64,000 nucleotides of DNA from the human T2T-CHM13v2.0 reference genome, Homo sapiens: the NCBI RefSeq assembly GCF_009914755.1, contig NC_060938.1; one strand, 5' to 3'. Below, piece after piece: positions 19,284 through 61,169 of this stretch (its first letter is position 1; every line of letters begins with the position of its first letter). Position numbers and translations under genes: made by a program. The notes under the pieces are model-generated. The model saw nothing but the letters and a program-made list of their open reading frames with translations. It did not search any database and had not been told where the DNA came from.

Positions 19284-20975
19284 CACAAACAAATGAAAAA
19301 ACATTCCATGCTCATGGATGGGAAGAATCAATATCGTGAAAATGGCCATACTGCCCAAAGTAATTTATAGATTCAATGCTATTCCCATCAAGCTACCACT
19401 GACTTTCTTCACAGAATTAGAAAAAACTACTTTAAATTTCATATGGAATCAAAAAAGAGCCTGTATAACCAGGGCAATCCTAAGCAAAAAGAACAAAGTT
19501 GGAGGCATCACGCTACCTGACTTCAAACTATACTACAAGGTTACAGTAACCAAAACAACATGTTACTAGTACCAAAACAGACATATAGACCAATGGAACA
19601 GAACAGAGTCCTCAGAAATAACACCATGCATCTATAGCCATCTGATCTTTGACAAAACTGACAAAAACAAGCAATGGGGAAAGGATTCCCTATTTAATAA
19701 ATGATGTCGGGAAAACTGGCTAGCCATATGCAGAAAGCTGAAACTGGACCCCTTCTTTACACCTTATACAAAAATTGACTCAACATGGATTAAAGACTTA
19801 AACATAAGACCTAAAACCATGAAAACCCTGGAAGAAAGCCTAGGCAATACCATTCAGGATACAGGCATGGGCAAAGACTTCATGACTAAAACACCAAAAG
19901 CAATTGCAACAAAAGCCAAAACTGACAAATGGGATCTAATTAAATGAAAGAGCTTCTGCACAGCAAAAGAAACTATCATCAGAGTGAACAGGCAACCTAC
20001 AGAATGGGAGAAAATTTTTGTAATTTATCCATCTGACAAAGGTCTAATATCCAGAATCTACAGAGAACTTAAACAAATGTACAAGAAAAAACAAACAACC
20101 CCATCAAAAAGTGGGGCAAAGGATAAGAACAGACACTTATCAGAAGAAGACATTTATGCAGCCAACAAACATATGAAATAAAGCTCATCATCACTGCTCA
20201 TTAGAGAAATGCAAATCAAAATTGCAATGAGATACCGTCTCACGCCAGTTAGAATGGCTATCATTAAAAAGCCAGGAAACAACAGATGCTGGAGAGGATG
20301 TTGAGAAATAGAAGTGCTTTTACACTGTTGATGGGAGTGTAAATTAGTTCAACCATTGTGGAAGACAGTGTGGCGATTCCTCAAGGATCTAGAACCAGAA
20401 ATACCATTTGACCCAGCAATCCCATTACTGGGTATATACCCAAAGGGTTATAAATCATTCTACTATAAAGACATACACACACATAAGTTTATTGCAGCAC
20501 TATTCACAATAGCAGACTTGGAACCAATCCAAATGCCCATCAGTGATACACTGGATAAAGAAAATGTGGCACATATACACCATGGAATACTATGCAGCCA
20601 TAAAAATGATGAGTTCATGTCCTTTGCAGGGACATGGATGAAGCTGGAAACCATCATTCTCAGCAAACTAACACAGGAACAGAAAACCAAACACTGCATG
20701 TTCTCACTCATAAGTAGGAGTTGAACAATGAGAACACATGGACGCAGGGAGGGGAACGTCACACACGGGGGCCTGTTGGGGGGTGGGGGGCTAGGGGAGG
20801 GATAGTATTAGGAGAAATACCTAATGTAGATGACAGTTTGATGGCTGCAGCAAACCACCATGGCACATGAATACCTGTGTAACAAACCTGCACGTTCTGC
20901 ACGTGTATCCCAGAACTTAAAGTATATATATATACTAAAGTATATATATATATACTAACAAATGTATATATATAT
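19284..20975 (+). mobile_element. 5'-truncated L1PA7-like element; tail converted to (TA)n
   Basis: ORF2 C-terminal remnants (19318..19569, 20356..20724); 3'UTR ggctaggggagggatagtattaggagaaatacctaatgtagatgac; residual TSD ATATTTGT on both sides. Confidence 0.92.
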
Positions 20976-26654: not shown

Positions 26655-33614
<6,960 letters not shown>

Positions 33615-53260: not shown

Positions 53261-54889
53261 TACATCATAGTTGATATGATCTGTTTAGAGTAAATACATT
53301 TATGCATATTGAAATTCTCTTCTCATGTTCTGCATTTATCTACATAAAAATGTAGTGTACTAAGTTTATTTAATTGACTAATTACTATTGCATTATCTTT
53401 CAGCCTTTGTCTTTTTTCTCCTTCTCTATTTGGTGGATCATTTTACTCCTCCCATTATTTTATCTGTTAATTTGACTTGGCTTTATAGTCAAATGTTCAC
53501 TCAGTTAATAATATAAAACCTTTCTGATATATTTTTGGTCGTTTTACTGTCTACACCTTAGCTAGATAATACAAAGTCGAAGACGTTTCACACTTTTTGA
53601 AACTTTCATTGCTTCTCTTAATTTTCACATAGTTTAATTTTTACTCACCTATTATTAGTCTCTGTAGAATTTGTCTCATGAAAGAACAACATCGATGCAT
53701 TTTTGGCATAGTTTTCTTTATTGCTAGGACATAGTATGCTCGGTAGTGTAGGCAATAAATTGGCTTTGTTTTAGTAACTACCAGCAAAAGTTCTACATAA
53801 CTACATAATTTAAAAAATTTTTAAGAATTGAAATCTCTCGAAATGTTGATCTTGTGAGATTACACAACGTTTACATATTAAGGTCTCAATAAAGATTTTG
53901 TTCAAATATGTTTCTAAGCCTCTTTATGGGCTTTAGATCTGTCCATATTAGTAATCTTCTTTGGAAACAGAATCAGGAAAGGACCTCTTCTAAAGACTCT
54001 TTGGGTTAAACTACCTTAAAAGAGAAGCACTCTTGTGGACCTGATAAAGGTGAATTTTGCAAGTTTTTGCGTTTTATTCAAGGCAAGGAATTTAGACAGA
54101 AGAACCATAGGAGAAACACTTGCTTTGAGTTTCTGAGTTAGGCAGAAAATGTGTTCACAGTGGCTCTGGTCTTTGTAAATATAGAACAAATTAAAGAATT
54201 AGTAGTGTAATTAATTAATAATGCTATGAGAGAACATTTCTCACTAATTCTTCTGTAACTCAGAAGTTCACACTAAAGTTGGAAGCTATGCTGCCCTGTG
54301 GAGCCCATTCCTTTTATATTGCCTGCTACTTGTTGGAGTGCCTGTCTCTGCTTGGTAAAAAGAGCATCAGGCTGAGTCTTCAGGAGGAAAACCCCAACAG
54401 TGTTTAATTAGATAGGTAAACTTCCACGTTTGATCATGCAGCTGGAAAACTTAATAGTGAATTAAATGTTGGACGTATACATTGTCATTGCCCATCTGTT
54501 TGCAACCAAACATAAACTAGAGAACACTCTCCTAGCTTCTTTACCTCACTGATAAGGTCAGAAAATGTTTGAATGGAAGCACCAGAAAGACTTTTCTGTG
54601 AGGGAAATGATTACACATGAAAGTGTAAATTCTGGTTCTGTTCATGCTAGTTTATTTTATAGTCTTCAGCTTCCTGTAGGAGAATACAATTCACTTGAAA
54701 GAAAATAGCGTAGAGGAGGAAGTGAGGAACTGCACAAGGGCAGAAATCAGCAGGGCAGTGTGGGTGATGCATGTGTGCATGCACATGTATGCGTGTAGGG
54801 AGCAGGAGAGCTGGAAATGTGGGTCAGGAATGAAATAAGAAAGGTGTTTTTTTTTTTTTTTTAAAAACACAATATTGTAAGAGTTAATA

Positions 54890-54895
54890 TTTATT
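54890..54895 (-). terminator. Polyadenylation signal used by the transducing L1 transcript
   Basis: TTTATT on + (AATAAA on -), 27 nt upstream of the poly(A) that starts at 54862. Confidence 0.85.
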
Positions 54896-54928
54896 AAAAA
54901 TTCACATGTAGTTATAGTAAATACATGA

Positions 54929-55302
<374 letters not shown>

Positions 55303-55407
55303 ACAATATTCTTAAAGTTGCTTCAGTGAGGTCACACATTTTCCCTATTATAGCTATTTCTTACAGTCTTCTTTTAAAATATAACTTTTTTTCATTATTC
55401 TTTTCAG

Positions 55408-55522
55408 TTAGGGAAAGATGGCTGTGTCTCCAAGTTTATTAACAGAGATGCTTTTGAGTTAAATCGGGAAGGATACTGGAGGTTCCTCAAAGTGCATGCT
55501 CTTGTTACAGAAGACGGAACAG
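55408..55522 (+). pseudogene. OVOS2: Isolated 115-nt exon of an ovostatin / alpha-2-macroglobulin family gene (MG3-domain region, equivalent to the A2M exon encoding LNSHGC..EEGT)
   Basis: ttcttttcAG|TTA..ACAG|GTaatg; translates LGKDGCVSKFINRDAFELNREGYWRFLKVHALVTEDGT(G), aligning without gaps over 38 aa to A2M [38 protein letters not shown]. Assignment to ovostatin is from memory; OVOS1 versus OVOS2 cannot be resolved. Confidence 0.82.
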
Positions 55523-55931
55523 GTAATGCTTTCTTTAAGAAGCCAGACCCCAATGGATATCACTGTCTCATTCGAATTGTTACCTGATTGCCAACTATAC
55601 AATGTTAATACAATCATTTTCCCTGAGGGCTTTTCACTGGGTTCGTCTGATTCAAATTCTGAATGTTTCATATATCAACCAAAATTTTCACACACATGTT
55701 GATGTATGGTCAAGTACTAAATTCAAATAAGGCTACAATAGAAGTAAGAATGCCAACTTTTTTTCCCATTAAATTTGTGATAATTTATTACACAGTAATA
55801 CAAAACAAATACAATCCCAATGCTTTATCTGAGTCATAGAAATTTTGTTCTCTAGGAAAGAAAACATAATTATATAGTTTTAGGAAAATTTACTAATTCT
55901 TATTTCTTTTTTTATTATTATTATACTTTAA

Positions 55932-58434
<2,503 letters not shown>

Positions 58435-61169
58435 ACAACGAGAACACATGGACACAGGAAGGGGAACATCACACTCTGGGGACTGTTGTGGGGTGAGGGG
58501 AGCGGGGAGGGATAGCATTAGGAGAAAGGTCTTTTTATCTATGCAGAGCAACTTGTACATTGACCTAGGCCTGCGGTTTCAGACAGTGCTCCAAGAGCCC
58601 TTTCAGGCACCTGTGTGGTAGTGGGAGGGAATGGGGCTTTGGAATCCTTATCTTCATTTCAGTCAGCGTTAATATACATATTGTATAAATTTTGTTTCTT
58701 CTTATCCTCTTTGTTAAACAAAGTGCTTTGCAGCTTTCATATTTACCCTTGGTGGTTATGCCTTTGTTCCTAGTCTGGGATAATATTTTAATTTTTGTCA
58801 TGTAGTCATTAAAACCATGTGTTACTGTCTTAGTCTATGACTTGCTTGGACCACTGTGTTTATTTTGGTGCTTCACATTCTTCTTTCCTAATAAAATAAT
58901 TTTTGATTGAATAATCAGAATGATTCCTGGGGAGGCTCTAGTCCTTTCAGCCTATCTTCCCTTTTAGGATTGCATGCCATAAAATCCTGAATATCTCTCT
59001 GAACTTTCAAATTCTTGACTTACTCTAGTCTGGACTTATATCAAGCCGTCTACTTCAACCTTTCCCTTGCTGGTCATCGTAAGCCTCTGTGTGACAGGGC
59101 CCTTGAACCCTTAAATTCATGTCACTTTTGCTTCACCAACCCATTCATTTTTTGACCTTAAGTCTCTAAATAGTTTCTAGACTTTCTTGGTGCTCAAACT
59201 ATGAAGACTTGTCCCATGCTTTGTTTGCACTGAATGAGACACAAGAGCTGATAGAGTTCCTCGTTACAACTGTGTCTATTTTGTGTCCTGTCTCAGTAGT
59301 GTATTCTAGAATGGGCTCAGGAATGTTACAATATCATCACAATACTTTTCATTTCCTTCCTCCCACTAATTTCTAGTAAAATATTATTCTTTGTTGATTT
59401 ATTTCTATTGCAATTACCTTCTACCTGCCCAGTGAGTTTTTTGTTTGCTTGTTTATTTTTTTAATAGGGTAACTCATTTTATTGTTATATTTGAAATATA
59501 GGCATATTCTAGCAATTATCAATACTACCTATATTGTCATAGTAATTAGGCTACATTACAAATTTAAGCTTGATTATTTCAATTCAATCTTGATTTTCAG
59601 GGCTATTTACATAGTTCTGCAGCTATGTTAACTTCAGCAACTATAAGTAGCATCTATGATCTTTAAAGTTGTTTCCTCATGGTAATTGTTAGATACATAC
59701 TCTCCAGTTAGATTTTCTGGTAGGCCGATGGGAGAGATATGTTGGGCAGGATAGAATTTTCAGCATTTCTCAATAGACATAGAAATGATTTTCTACTCTG
59801 TGTGCAGAGTTAAGCATTCATAATGTAGAAGTTCAGTTGAGAGGCCTCTTTTAAAAAGAGTGGCAGAAAACATGAGAAAAAAGTGGGAAAGTTTGCTAGT
59901 CTTGCACACCCTTGGGGATTTGGCATGCTTCACATGTGATAAAACTTGATTAATTTTTCTCCTTTGTGGATCACAGTTGGGGACCCCACCAGACTGAGGT
60001 ACACAATTATATTCATCCATCGCAAAACAAAACTAAAACTGTAACGAATGTATTTGAAGAGAAATATGAAAGAAATGAGATGTAGTATGACTTGTTCATT
60101 TTGGCATGGTCTTATGAAATTTGCTTTTGCTTATATAAGTAGGTTCAGTTAGAGTGGTTCTGCTACAGATGACCATTAATTACTATTTAATTTATTGGTA
60201 GTTTAAAAACCTGATTTATTTGATCAAGTGGAATGATGTAGATTATTCTTGATAAACACTAGTTCAATATTATAATTCATGCTTTTGAGGATCATGACCA
60301 GTTTATCTTTAGAAATAGACATTATCTCAGTAGATGCTTTTCCTCTCTTTTTTCCTCCTTGTTGAGATGATTTTAGCATTAGTGCTCATATGCACAGAAT
60401 GTTCACTCTCATCATTTCATTGCTCTTGATTTTGTTTTAAGTAGTGATTTTGACCCTTTTGTTTATCACTGTTTGAGGTTGTTTGTTCATTTCTAGTGTT
60501 ATTGGGGGAACTGAATGAACTAGATTGTTCTAGTTCAGCTATGTTATGGTTTCTTATATTTTAACAATACCTTCTCCATCCACCAAGGAAAATGGATGGA
60601 AACCTTCCATAGTAGGTGAGCTCTATAATGGTTTTCATCAGGTGAAAGCATGACAAAGCCTTCTGATGAGACTGAAGAGAAATATATAAATAAAAACACA
60701 ACTGCTGCTTGAGCTCTTCCTGCAGATGGCACTGGTGTTACTTGGATAAAGAACATTTTTGTGTTCAGCAGCTTTTAGTACATTGTGCACACTGGAAAGG
60801 CTCATACATACCAGGAAACTAAGTAGATGTTTTGTAATAAGTGCTCACTTATCTGTGCATGATTGAACCCCAGCATGGTTCAACCCGTCCTTTTGGAGGT
60901 CTGCTTTTCAATGAATGCATTCACATGGACAATAAAATCTGATGCAGTACTCTTTTTGACTAGGGAAGAGACCTACCACTAAAATCACATAAAAAAGTAA
61001 ACCTCCAGGACCAGTCTCCCAGTTGCATCTGCTTGAAAAATCCGGCCTAGTCTGAGAATGCATAAATATCACAGGGGTTTGAAGGGAGATATCATGATTT
61101 TTTAAAGTAAAAATATGTTATTCTGATAAAATCCTGGGAGATTTATTCTGGTAATCTTAAAAGTGAATT

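What the first reader, a model, noticed from the sequence alone, without database searches (positions are those of the whole stretch)
55380..55530. The transduced exon is splice-competent and lies sense to the inferred host transcript
Seen: ~20-nt pyrimidine tract plus CAG, 38 open codons and a CAG|GTAATG donor, all on +. Inference: repeat-strand bias points to a + strand host transcript, so this could be a cassette exon. At 115 nt (not 3n) it would frameshift a coding host and act as a poison/NMD exon, or be tolerated in a UTR or lncRNA. It could also attract mis-mapped OVOS exome or RNA-seq reads.
Basis: partly seen in the sequence, partly recalled or inferred. Interest (0 to 1): 0.7.

Follow-up and report, generated by a model that had tools for sequence, protein, structure and literature searches.

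The report
Ovostatin exon carried by an L1
A complete exon of the ovostatin pseudogene on chromosome 12, with both splice sites, was copied into a chromosome 14 gene desert as a passenger of an old L1 retrotransposon, and nothing here shows that it is used.

Summary
The sequence features are real. There is a pyrimidine tract and CAG at 55385-55407, a 115-nt unit at 55408-55522 with one open frame, and a CAG|GTAATG donor.

It is a copied exon, not a chance pattern. It matches chr12:31062111-31062225 at 110 of 115 bases. That chr12 exon lies between MG3 and MG4 exons of an alpha-2-macroglobulin-like pseudogene beside DDX11, which fits OVOS2P. A2M's own homologous exon is also 115 nt with the same boundaries.

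The exon sits inside a single L1 insertion on the minus strand, spanning 54838-58536:
- target-site duplications matching at 13 of 14 bases;
- a 2.5-kb inverted ORF2 segment, as in twin priming;
- the L1 3' end;
- a 143-bp chr2 segment, then a roughly 590-bp chr12 segment, each ending about 20-30 nt after an AATAAA and followed by an A-run.

An Alu landed in the chr12 segment later.

The exon is antisense to the L1 RNA, which explains why it arrived with its introns. The cassette-exon idea has no support here. No transcript is annotated across the site, the repeat-strand bias is 12 of 16 (two-sided p 0.08), and similar exon-like units recur in the window. It is a new example of a known process.

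The parts
54838..54851 (.). Left target-site duplication AGAAAGGTGTTTTT. Its last T's merge with the poly(T) run.
   Evidence: A local alignment of the two flanks gives 13 of 14 identical bases with 58523-58536.
54847..54862 (-). Run of 16 T, which is the poly(A) tail of the insertion on the minus strand. The chr12 source has only 6 T here.
   Evidence: Sequence.
54863..55764 (-). Second (outer) 3' transduction. It is about 590 bp copied from chr12:31061871-31062459 (intron-exon-intron of the OVOS2P-like gene), interrupted by a later Alu. On the L1-sense strand it ends 26 nt after an AATAAA. The T-run 55758-55764 at its right end is the A-run separating it from the chr2 segment.
   Evidence: BLAST: 54858-54995 at 90.9% and 55303-55762 at 95.0% to L009. 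Per-part counts. Junctions read.
54996..55302 (-). Alu inserted into the chr14 copy after the transduction. It has its own duplication ACAATATTCTT at 54985-54995 and 55303-55313. It is absent from chr12.
   Evidence: chr12 is continuous across the site. Sequence.
55385..55407 (+). Inherited acceptor: pyrimidine tract (19 of 21) plus CAG.
   Evidence: 36 of 40 bases upstream of the exon are identical to chr12.
55408..55522 (+). The 115-nt exon relic, with frame 1 open for 38 codons. It is homologous to A2M residues 297-331 (end of the MG3 domain) and is antisense to the L1 RNA that carried it.
55523..55528 (+). Inherited donor GTAATG. The 9-mer CAG|GTAATG is identical in chr12.
55765..55907 (-). 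First (inner) 3' transduction: 143 bp copied from chr2:212707044-212707186. On the L1-sense strand it ends 19 nt after an AATAAA.
   Evidence: 97.9% identity over 143 bp. Junctions read.
55908..55913 (-). T6, the remnant of the L1's own poly(A) tail between the L1 3' end and the chr2 segment.
55914..56022 (-). Last ~109 nt of the L1 3' end, sense on the minus strand.
   Evidence: It aligns colinearly with the 3' terminus of a contiguous L1 in L009. It also matches other L1 3' ends in the window.
56023..58527 (+). Inverted 5' segment of the same L1: ORF2 from before the RT domain to 8 nt short of the 3' piece. It reads sense on +.
   Evidence: RVT_1 on + at E 6.6e-17 and 5.2e-19. The ruler L1 shows that 58527 and 56022 are 8 nt apart in L1 coordinates.
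58523..58536 (.). Right target-site duplication AGAAAGGTCTTTTT, followed by A. The nick site reads TTTTT/A.

Best explanation
The exon-like unit is a genuine exon of an ovostatin-type alpha-2-macroglobulin gene copy on chromosome 12 (OVOS2P by position). It reached chromosome 14 as passive cargo of one L1 retrotransposition event.

Inferred history:
1. An L1 sitting at chr2:212.7 Mb read through its own poly(A) signal and picked up 143 bp of flank.
2. That element jumped into an intron of the ovostatin gene, antisense to it.
3. There it read through again and picked up about 590 bp, containing the 115-nt exon with parts of both flanking introns.
4. That RNA was then inserted at chr14 by target-primed reverse transcription with twin priming. 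This left an inverted 2.5-kb ORF2 segment, a 109-nt sense L1 3' end and the two transduced segments, flanked by a 14-bp duplication.

Because the exon was antisense in the L1 RNA, it was not spliced and arrived with both splice sites. At chr14 the splice signals are inherited sequence and do not show use. The unit most likely sits silent in an intergenic desert and has drifted neutrally since: 5 substitutions in 115 nt, and an Alu inserted 105 nt upstream.

Shown: the homologies, the junction anatomy and the exon's identity. Inferred: the order of events, the lost source L1s and the lack of use.
For: 1. Source homologies. Window 54858-54995 and 55303-55762 match chr12 at 91-95%; 55765-55907 matches chr2 at 97.9%. 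Neither match continues beyond these ends.
2. Segment ends. Each segment ends on the minus strand at AATAAA plus 19 or 26 nt, followed by an A-run: T7 at 55758-64 and T16 at 54847-62. The sources have no such run or a shorter one.
3. Segment starts. The L1 3' end with its own short tail directly precedes the chr2 segment. Both segment starts coincide with T-rich/A sites in the source (TTTCT/AT and AATTT/AT), as expected where a progenitor L1 had inserted (read by eye).
4. Twin-priming geometry. ORF2 is sense on + at 56023-58527 (RVT_1). Its far end lies 8 nt upstream, in L1 coordinates, of the start of the minus-strand 3' piece, measured on a contiguous L1. One pair of duplications, 13 of 14 identical, with a TTTTT/A nick site, flanks the whole. 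Passages of bioRxiv 10.1101/2024.08.27.596794 describe small internal deletions at the inversion as typical.
5. Exon identity. The chr12 exon lies on the same strand between MG3 hits (31070539, 31065088) and an MG4 hit (31055271). A second tandem copy has a 112-nt paralogous exon in the same relative place. The two-sequence profile finds human A2M residues 297-331 at E 0.0045 as the top PDB hits. A2M's exon is 115 nt with the same boundaries.
6. Naming. DDX11-type DEAD_2 exons lie at chr12:30.96 Mb. This fits the DDX11+OVOS2 block described in passages of PMC12874980.
7. No host transcript. None is listed in the supplied annotation, and no paper in the library names LOC105370476.
Against: - No progenitor L1 lies next to either source segment in this assembly (no L1 homology in L009 1-4872 nor anywhere in L010). 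The read-through origin is therefore inferred from the offspring only.
- The chr2 segment is nominally less diverged (3 of 143 mismatches) than the chr12 segment (23 of 593). The serial order predicts the opposite, although the difference is not significant (Fisher p 0.45).
- After allowing for the duplication and the templated A's, only about 5 A's of the terminal tail are untemplated.
- The name OVOS2P rests on synteny and recall. The antibody epitope quoted in PMC12874980 was not found in six frames of chr12:31.01-31.11 Mb.
- 'Silent' is an absence of evidence. No expression data could be consulted, and the core splice signals are as good as the parent's.
Confidence: 0.8

Rival explanations
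1. One reading: the unit is used as a cassette, poison or terminal exon of a + strand transcript that runs through this region, for example an unannotated extension of the lncRNA LOC105370476.
For: The acceptor, donor and length are intact and equal to the parent's. The exon is on the same strand as the only annotated model upstream (annotation supplied with the finding). Repeats lean to the minus orientation, 12 of 16.
Against: - No transcript is annotated across the site, and the lncRNA model ends about 35 kb upstream.
- The strand bias is not significant (two-sided p 0.077), and such bias does not show transcription.
- Six units pass the same crude criteria in 64 kb, 5 on + and 1 on -, so such signals are common decoys.
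- One change (55377, C in the parent, A here) removes a TTTAC that could have served as a branch site. This is my reading and is untested.
- A + strand transcript would next meet 2.5 kb of sense L1 ORF2. From recalled literature, such sequence attenuates elongation and causes premature polyadenylation.
Confidence: 0.08
2. The same L1-mediated insertion, but built by template switching of the L1 reverse transcriptase between three separate polyadenylated RNAs (a chr12 transcript, a chr2 transcript and an L1 RNA), not by two successive read-through transductions.
For: No source L1 is present beside either source segment in this genome. A-runs sit at each junction, where a switch onto a poly(A) tail could land. 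No other offspring carrying either segment was found in the genome.
Against: - The L1 is at the 5' side of the unique segments, the order that read-through predicts.
- Both segments start exactly at T-rich/A sites that resemble L1 endonuclease targets in their sources. A random switch point has no reason to do this.
- Three switches each landing on a 3' end is less parsimonious than two transductions. Transduction is reported in roughly 10-25% of L1 insertions (passages of PMC4862182; abstract of PMC13009371).
Confidence: 0.1
3. A DNA-level duplication (segmental duplication or repair patch) placed chr12 and chr2 pieces next to unrelated L1 fragments.
For: The chr12 locus lies in a region described as rearranged and duplicated in African apes (passages of PMC12874980).
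Against: Both pieces end at poly(A) sites followed by A-runs longer than in the sources. The L1 pieces have twin-priming geometry with an 8-nt gap. A 14-bp duplication with a TTTTT/A site flanks the whole.
Confidence: 0.02

Closest known systems
L1 3' transduction / exon shuffling by L1 (Moran et al. 1999; Goodier 2000; Pickeral 2000). These were seen only as citations and in review passages of PMC10760644, PMC4862182 and PMC9311842.
   Same: The L1 3' end with its own tail is followed by unique flanking DNA that ends at a downstream poly(A) signal and tail. Duplications flank the whole. An exon is carried to a new chromosome.
   Different: There are two successive transductions from two chromosomes. 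The exon is carried antisense, so both splice sites survive. No progenitor is left in this genome, and there is no evidence that the delivered exon joined a gene. In the TIGER survey, none of 280 germline transductions truly carried an exon; the 2 candidates were gene retrocopies (passage).
Twin-priming 5' inversion of L1 (Ostertag and Kazazian 2001). The paper is not held; it is described in passages of PMC10760644 and bioRxiv 10.1101/2024.08.27.596794.
   Same: An inverted 5' segment joins a sense 3' segment. There is a small internal deletion (8 nt) between the two in L1 coordinates, and a single pair of duplications.
   Different: The poly(dT)-primed product consists mostly of transduced DNA (about 750 nt) with only 109 nt of L1. 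The internally primed product (2.5 kb) is the longer one, whereas the preprint reports the opposite as the average.
Orphan transductions (Solyom 2012; Tubio 2014), seen in a review passage.
   Same: Most of the sense-oriented product is non-L1 sequence.
   Different: It is not a true orphan: 109 nt of L1 3' end and an inverted ORF2 segment are retained, and these identify the carrier.
Dispersed CFTR exon 9 copies attributed to L1 (Rozmahel 1997; Ejima and Yang 2003). This is recalled and was not read here; the phrase occurs in one listed paper, which I did not open.
   Same: An exon with flanking intron sequence is copied to other chromosomes next to L1 sequence.
   Different: That case gave many copies. 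Here one copy was found genome-wide.
Intronic or intergenic pseudo-exons and poison exons (general knowledge).
   Same: Good-looking acceptor and donor at exon-like spacing, with a length that would shift the frame.
   Different: This one descends from a real exon. No host transcript is known, so 'poison exon' has no gene to act on.

Membership tests
L1 3' transduction | The L1 3' terminus with its own poly(A) remnant is directly followed by non-L1 unique DNA in the same orientation. | tested here: met
   L1 3' end at 55914-56022 (-), T6 at 55908-13, then the chr2 segment at 55765-55907.
L1 3' transduction | The transduced segment ends at a downstream poly(A) signal and carries an untemplated A-tail. 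| tested here: met
   AATAAA plus 19 nt plus A7 for the chr2 segment. AATAAA plus 26 nt plus an A-run of 16 for the chr12 segment, against 6 in the source.
L1 3' transduction | Target-site duplications and an endonuclease-type nick site flank the entire unit. | tested here: met
   54838-54851 against 58523-58536, 13 of 14 identical, nick site TTTTT/A.
L1 3' transduction | A progenitor L1 lies immediately upstream of the segment at the source locus. This feature corroborates membership and does not define it, because sources are often unfixed. | tested here: not met
   No L1 homology next to chr12:31061871 or chr2:212707186 in this assembly. This leaves template switching open as a rival.
Twin-priming 5' inversion | The inverted and sense parts come from adjacent positions of one L1, with a small deletion or duplication at the break. 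| tested here: met
   Positions 58527 and 56022 map 8 nt apart on a contiguous L1 used as a ruler. ORF2 orientation was confirmed by RVT_1.
Exon of an A2M-family (ovostatin, OVOS2P) gene | Near-identity to a chr12 segment that lies in gene order and on the same strand between MG3 and MG4 exons. | tested here: met
   110 of 115 bases identical. MG3 at 31070539 and 31065088, the exon at 31062111-225, MG4 at 31055271, all on the minus strand.
Exon of an A2M-family (ovostatin, OVOS2P) gene | The peptide is homologous to A2M proteins. | tested here: met
   The window peptide alone gave nothing. The paralog peptide hits only human A2M 297-331 at E 0.33-0.39. The two-sequence profile reaches E 0.0045. 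The match is weak but specific and end to end.
Exon of an A2M-family (ovostatin, OVOS2P) gene | Exon boundaries, length and phase are conserved with A2M. | tested here: met
   The A2M exon at chr12:9088677-9088791 is 115 nt and reads ag|CTA...ACAG|gt.
Exon of an A2M-family (ovostatin, OVOS2P) gene | The locus is the one named OVOS2P. | tested here: inconclusive
   Synteny with DDX11-type exons at 30.96 Mb fits the paper's DDX11+OVOS2 block. The quoted OVOS2 epitope was not found in chr12:31.01-31.11 Mb, and no annotation of chr12 was available.
Functional cassette / poison exon | A host transcript spans the exon on the same strand. | tested here: not met
   The annotation supplied with the finding has no transcript over 20096-64000. 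No paper names the upstream lncRNA.
Functional cassette / poison exon | Spliced reads join the exon to other exons. | not testable with these tools

The most novel reading that the evidence does not exclude
The delivered exon is actually spliced into an unannotated + strand non-coding transcript of this desert, for example in testis. That would make it a natural, completed case of L1-mediated exon shuffling in the human germ line. The exon would have survived transport because it travelled antisense in the L1 RNA. A weaker but safer novelty also holds. The chr14 copy is a dated fossil of the ovostatin exon: it keeps Leu (TTA) where today's chr12 copy has TGA. The nonsense change in the chr12 gene copy therefore arose after the transduction.
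Probability: 0.07. Interest if true: 0.55.

Novelty: new member of a known kind. Interest (0 to 1): 0.3.

Why it matters
L1 3' transduction has long been proposed as a route for exon shuffling, yet fixed natural cases that carry a whole exon with both splice sites appear rare. In one survey, none of 280 germline transductions did so (PMC4862182 passage).

This locus is a clean, fully resolved example with two source loci, twin priming and a later Alu. It could serve as a test case for whether delivered exons get used.

It also gives a small time marker for the decay of the human ovostatin genes: the chr12 stop codon postdates the copy.

In practice it is a paralogous sequence to keep in mind when designing OVOS2P primers or probes. 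Read mis-mapping looks unlikely.

Tried and rejected
- The 38-aa peptide alone: 0 Pfam families at E up to 10. The PDB search gave only 5 chance-level HigB toxin hits at E 0.057-1.3 and no A2M. Homology was reached only through the chr12 paralog and a profile.
- 'Chance exon-like pattern' was considered, because 6 such units (5 on +, 1 on -) pass the same crude criteria in the window. It was rejected on homology.
- I first misread 55914-56022 as a + strand L1. This was corrected with a contiguous L1 used as a ruler.
- The naming check with the OVOS2 epitope quoted in PMC12874980 found no match with up to 3 substitutions in 100 kb of chr12. The epitope may be split by an intron or lie outside the stretch searched.
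- Ostertag and Kazazian 2001 is not held.
- Literature: 0 papers hold OVOS2 with transduction and LINE-1. 0 occurrences of LOC105370476. These searches cover only the held library.
- No splice-site model (MaxEntScan, SpliceAI), repeat library or other primate genome was available. Splice strength, L1 subfamily and the presence of the insertion in apes were therefore not determined.
- Supplements of the cited papers were not consulted.

Full report
**Observation**

On the + strand the window reads a 21-nt tract with 19 pyrimidines (55385-55405) ending in CAG (55405-55407). A 115-nt unit follows (55408-55522), then GTAATG. The frame starting at 55408 is open for 38 codons; the other two frames each hold two stops.

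On their own these features are not rare. I ran a crude census of the 64-kb window: YAG with at least 15 of 17 pyrimidines in -20..-4, a donor matching at least 7 of 9 positions, spacing of 50-250 nt, one open frame. It finds 5 such units on + and 1 on -. With at least 14 of 17 pyrimidines it finds 12 and 3.

**What it is**

A search of the window's own assembly shows that 55310-55762 matches chr12:31061871-31062323 (minus strand) at 95%. The adjoining 55765-55891 matches chr2:212707044-212707170 at 98%. No other long match exists in the genome.

BLAST against fetched loci extends the chr12 match to 54858-54995. The gap at 54996-55302 is an Alu that chr12 lacks. It is flanked by its own duplication ACAATATTCTT, so it arrived later.

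The exon is 110 of 115 identical to chr12. The donor 9-mer is identical, and 36 of 40 bases upstream of the acceptor are identical.

**Identity of the parental exon**

The 38-aa peptide alone finds nothing in Pfam. In the PDB it finds only chance HigB hits. Context and a paralog give the answer.

- Gene order. On the chr12 minus strand, Pfam MG3 matches lie at 31070539-622 and 31065088-213. MG4 matches at 31055271-492. The exon (31062111-225) lies between them.
- Paralog. A second, tandem A2M-like copy has MG3 at 31034508 and 31030850, MG4 at 31025318, and between them a 112-nt paralogous exon. That exon is 39% identical as aligned, and its donor is broken (G|GA).
- Protein homology. The paralog peptide's only PDB hits are human A2M residues 297-331 (E 0.33-0.39). 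A profile of the two peptides raises this to E 0.0045.
- Exon structure. A2M's own exon for these residues, chr12:9088677-9088791, is also 115 nt. It has the same phase and the same ag|...ACAG|gt boundaries.

So the unit is a bona fide A2M-family exon encoding the end of the MG3 domain. Its length, not a multiple of three, is a family trait.

**Naming the locus**

DDX11-type DEAD_2 exons lie at chr12:30.96 Mb, with two further copies at 9.28 and 9.41 Mb. This fits the 'DDX11 + OVOS2' duplicated block that passages of PMC12874980 describe. The same passages call OVOS1P and OVOS2P transcribed pseudogenes.

I therefore call the parent OVOS2P. The OVOS2 epitope quoted in that paper was not found in chr12:31.01-31.11 Mb, and I could not see chr12 annotation, so the name remains provisional.

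**How it got there**

Reading the minus strand from right to left gives the anatomy of a single L1 insertion.

1. 58523-58536 and 54838-54851 are duplications, 13 of 14 identical, with a TTTTT/A nick site.
2. 58527 down to 56023 is L1 ORF2 that reads sense on the + strand (RVT_1 E 6.6e-17 and 5.2e-19). It is therefore inverted relative to the rest.
3. 56022 down to 55914 is the last ~109 nt of the L1 in minus orientation, followed by T6. On a contiguous L1 in locus L009 used as a ruler, positions 58527 and 56022 are 8 nt apart. This is the geometry expected of twin priming with a small internal deletion (passages).
4. 55907 down to 55765 is the chr2 segment, ending 19 nt after an AATAAA. T7 follows.
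5. 55764 down to 54863 is the chr12 segment, ending 26 nt after an AATAAA. A run of 16 T follows, where chr12 has 6.

Both segments start at T-rich/A sites in their sources, as expected where a progenitor L1 had been inserted (read by eye).

The most economical history is two successive 3' read-through transductions, chr2 first and then the ovostatin intron. The final insertion at chr14 was 5'-truncated and inverted.

The exon is antisense to that L1 RNA. This explains why it travelled unspliced with intron on both sides.

**Weak points of this history**

- Neither source locus keeps an L1 in this assembly. Template switching between three polyadenylated RNAs therefore remains a rival, at about 0.1.
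- The chr2 segment is nominally less diverged than the chr12 segment (3 of 143 against 23 of 593 mismatches). This runs against the serial order, but the difference is not significant (Fisher p 0.45).
- A DNA-level duplication is very unlikely given the tails, the signals and the duplications.

**Age**

Pooled substitution divergence is 26 of 736, about 3.5%. Using recalled primate divergences, this is of the order of the human-orangutan distance, so perhaps 10-20 million years. This is an inference.

It is close to the time at which PMC12874980 places the African-ape DDX11+OVOS2 duplication. I cannot say whether the source stood at 12p11 or at the ancestral 12p13 locus. The 12p13 ovostatin remnants have no copy of this segment.

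**State of the exon**

The five differences from chr12 are at 55410, 55445, 55460, 55482 and 55512.

- At 55460 the window has TTA (Leu) where chr12 has TGA. The paralog and A2M also have Leu there. The chr14 copy therefore keeps the ancestral codon, and the chr12 stop arose later.
- At 55445 the window's Arg is the derived state, since Thr is found in chr12, the paralog and A2M.

This pattern fits neutral drift in both copies.

- Nothing annotated crosses the site. The only + strand model ends at 20095 (annotation supplied with the finding), and no paper in the library names it.
- The repeat-strand bias exists only as a trend. Alus are 7 minus to 2 plus, and L1s (by 3' end) are 5 minus to 2 plus. 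Together that is 12 of 16, two-sided p 0.077. Only Alu and L1 ORF2/3'-end homologues were counted.
- Core splice signals equal the parent's. Similar decoys recur in the window, and one upstream change (55377) removes a possible branch-site motif; that point is my reading and is untested.
- Use as a cassette or poison exon is therefore possible but unsupported. I put it at about 0.08.
- Mis-mapping of OVOS reads is unlikely. Every 100-nt tile over the exon differs from the parent at 3-7 positions.

**Comparison with what is known**

The locus is an instance of L1 3' transduction with twin priming. Both are well described (review passages). The exon-carrying aspect was demonstrated experimentally by Moran et al. 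1999, which I saw only as a citation.

Natural germline examples appear scarce. In the TIGER survey the two exon-overlapping candidates among 280 transductions turned out to be gene retrocopies. I found no paper linking OVOS2 with L1 transduction.

It is a new member of a known kind and of modest interest. It would become more interesting only if junction reads showed that the exon is used.

Noticed in passing
window 46910-49342: A second L1 of similar type (94.7-96.4% identical to the one studied) also shows twin-priming anatomy. It has a minus-strand 3' part at 46910-49056 and an inverted + strand piece at 49055-49342. In L1 coordinates the two overlap by about 5 nt.
   Followed up: partly
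L009 5113-5226 (chr12:31062112-31062225, minus): The parental OVOS2P-like exon carries an in-frame TGA at codon 18, where the chr14 copy, the tandem paralog and A2M all have Leu. Its +1 frame is open instead.
   Followed up: yes
L011 404-517 (chr12:31026703-31026816, minus): A tandem second A2M-like copy at chr12:31.025-31.035 Mb has the homologous exon at 112 nt, one codon shorter. The donor GT is changed to GA, which fits a decayed gene copy.
   Followed up: partly
window 54996-55302: An Alu in minus orientation with a 24-T run and the duplication ACAATATTCTT was inserted into the transduced chr12 segment 105 nt upstream of the exon's acceptor. On a + strand RNA it would present an antisense Alu next to the exon.
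   Followed up: partly
L010 5045-5094 (chr2:212707044-212707093) = window 55765-55815: The first ~50 bp of the chr2-derived segment belong to an older dispersed repeat. There are 18 further genomic matches at 82-93% identity. The AATAAA used to end the first transduction lies inside this repeat.
   Followed up: no
window, both strands: Acceptor-like sites (YAG after at least 14 of 17 pyrimidines) are twice as common on + (74) as on - (35). This probably reflects the poly(T) tails of minus-oriented Alus and L1s. Two of the five strict exon-like units on + (30902-31072 and 34058-34231) overlap Alu-type or masked repeats.
   Followed up: partly
chr12:9354307-9354393 (minus): At the 12p13 ovostatin remnant, only the first MG3 exon gives a Pfam hit (with a TGA). 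No MG3 second part, MG4 or copy of the studied exon was found there. This fits the rearrangement described in PMC12874980.
   Followed up: no
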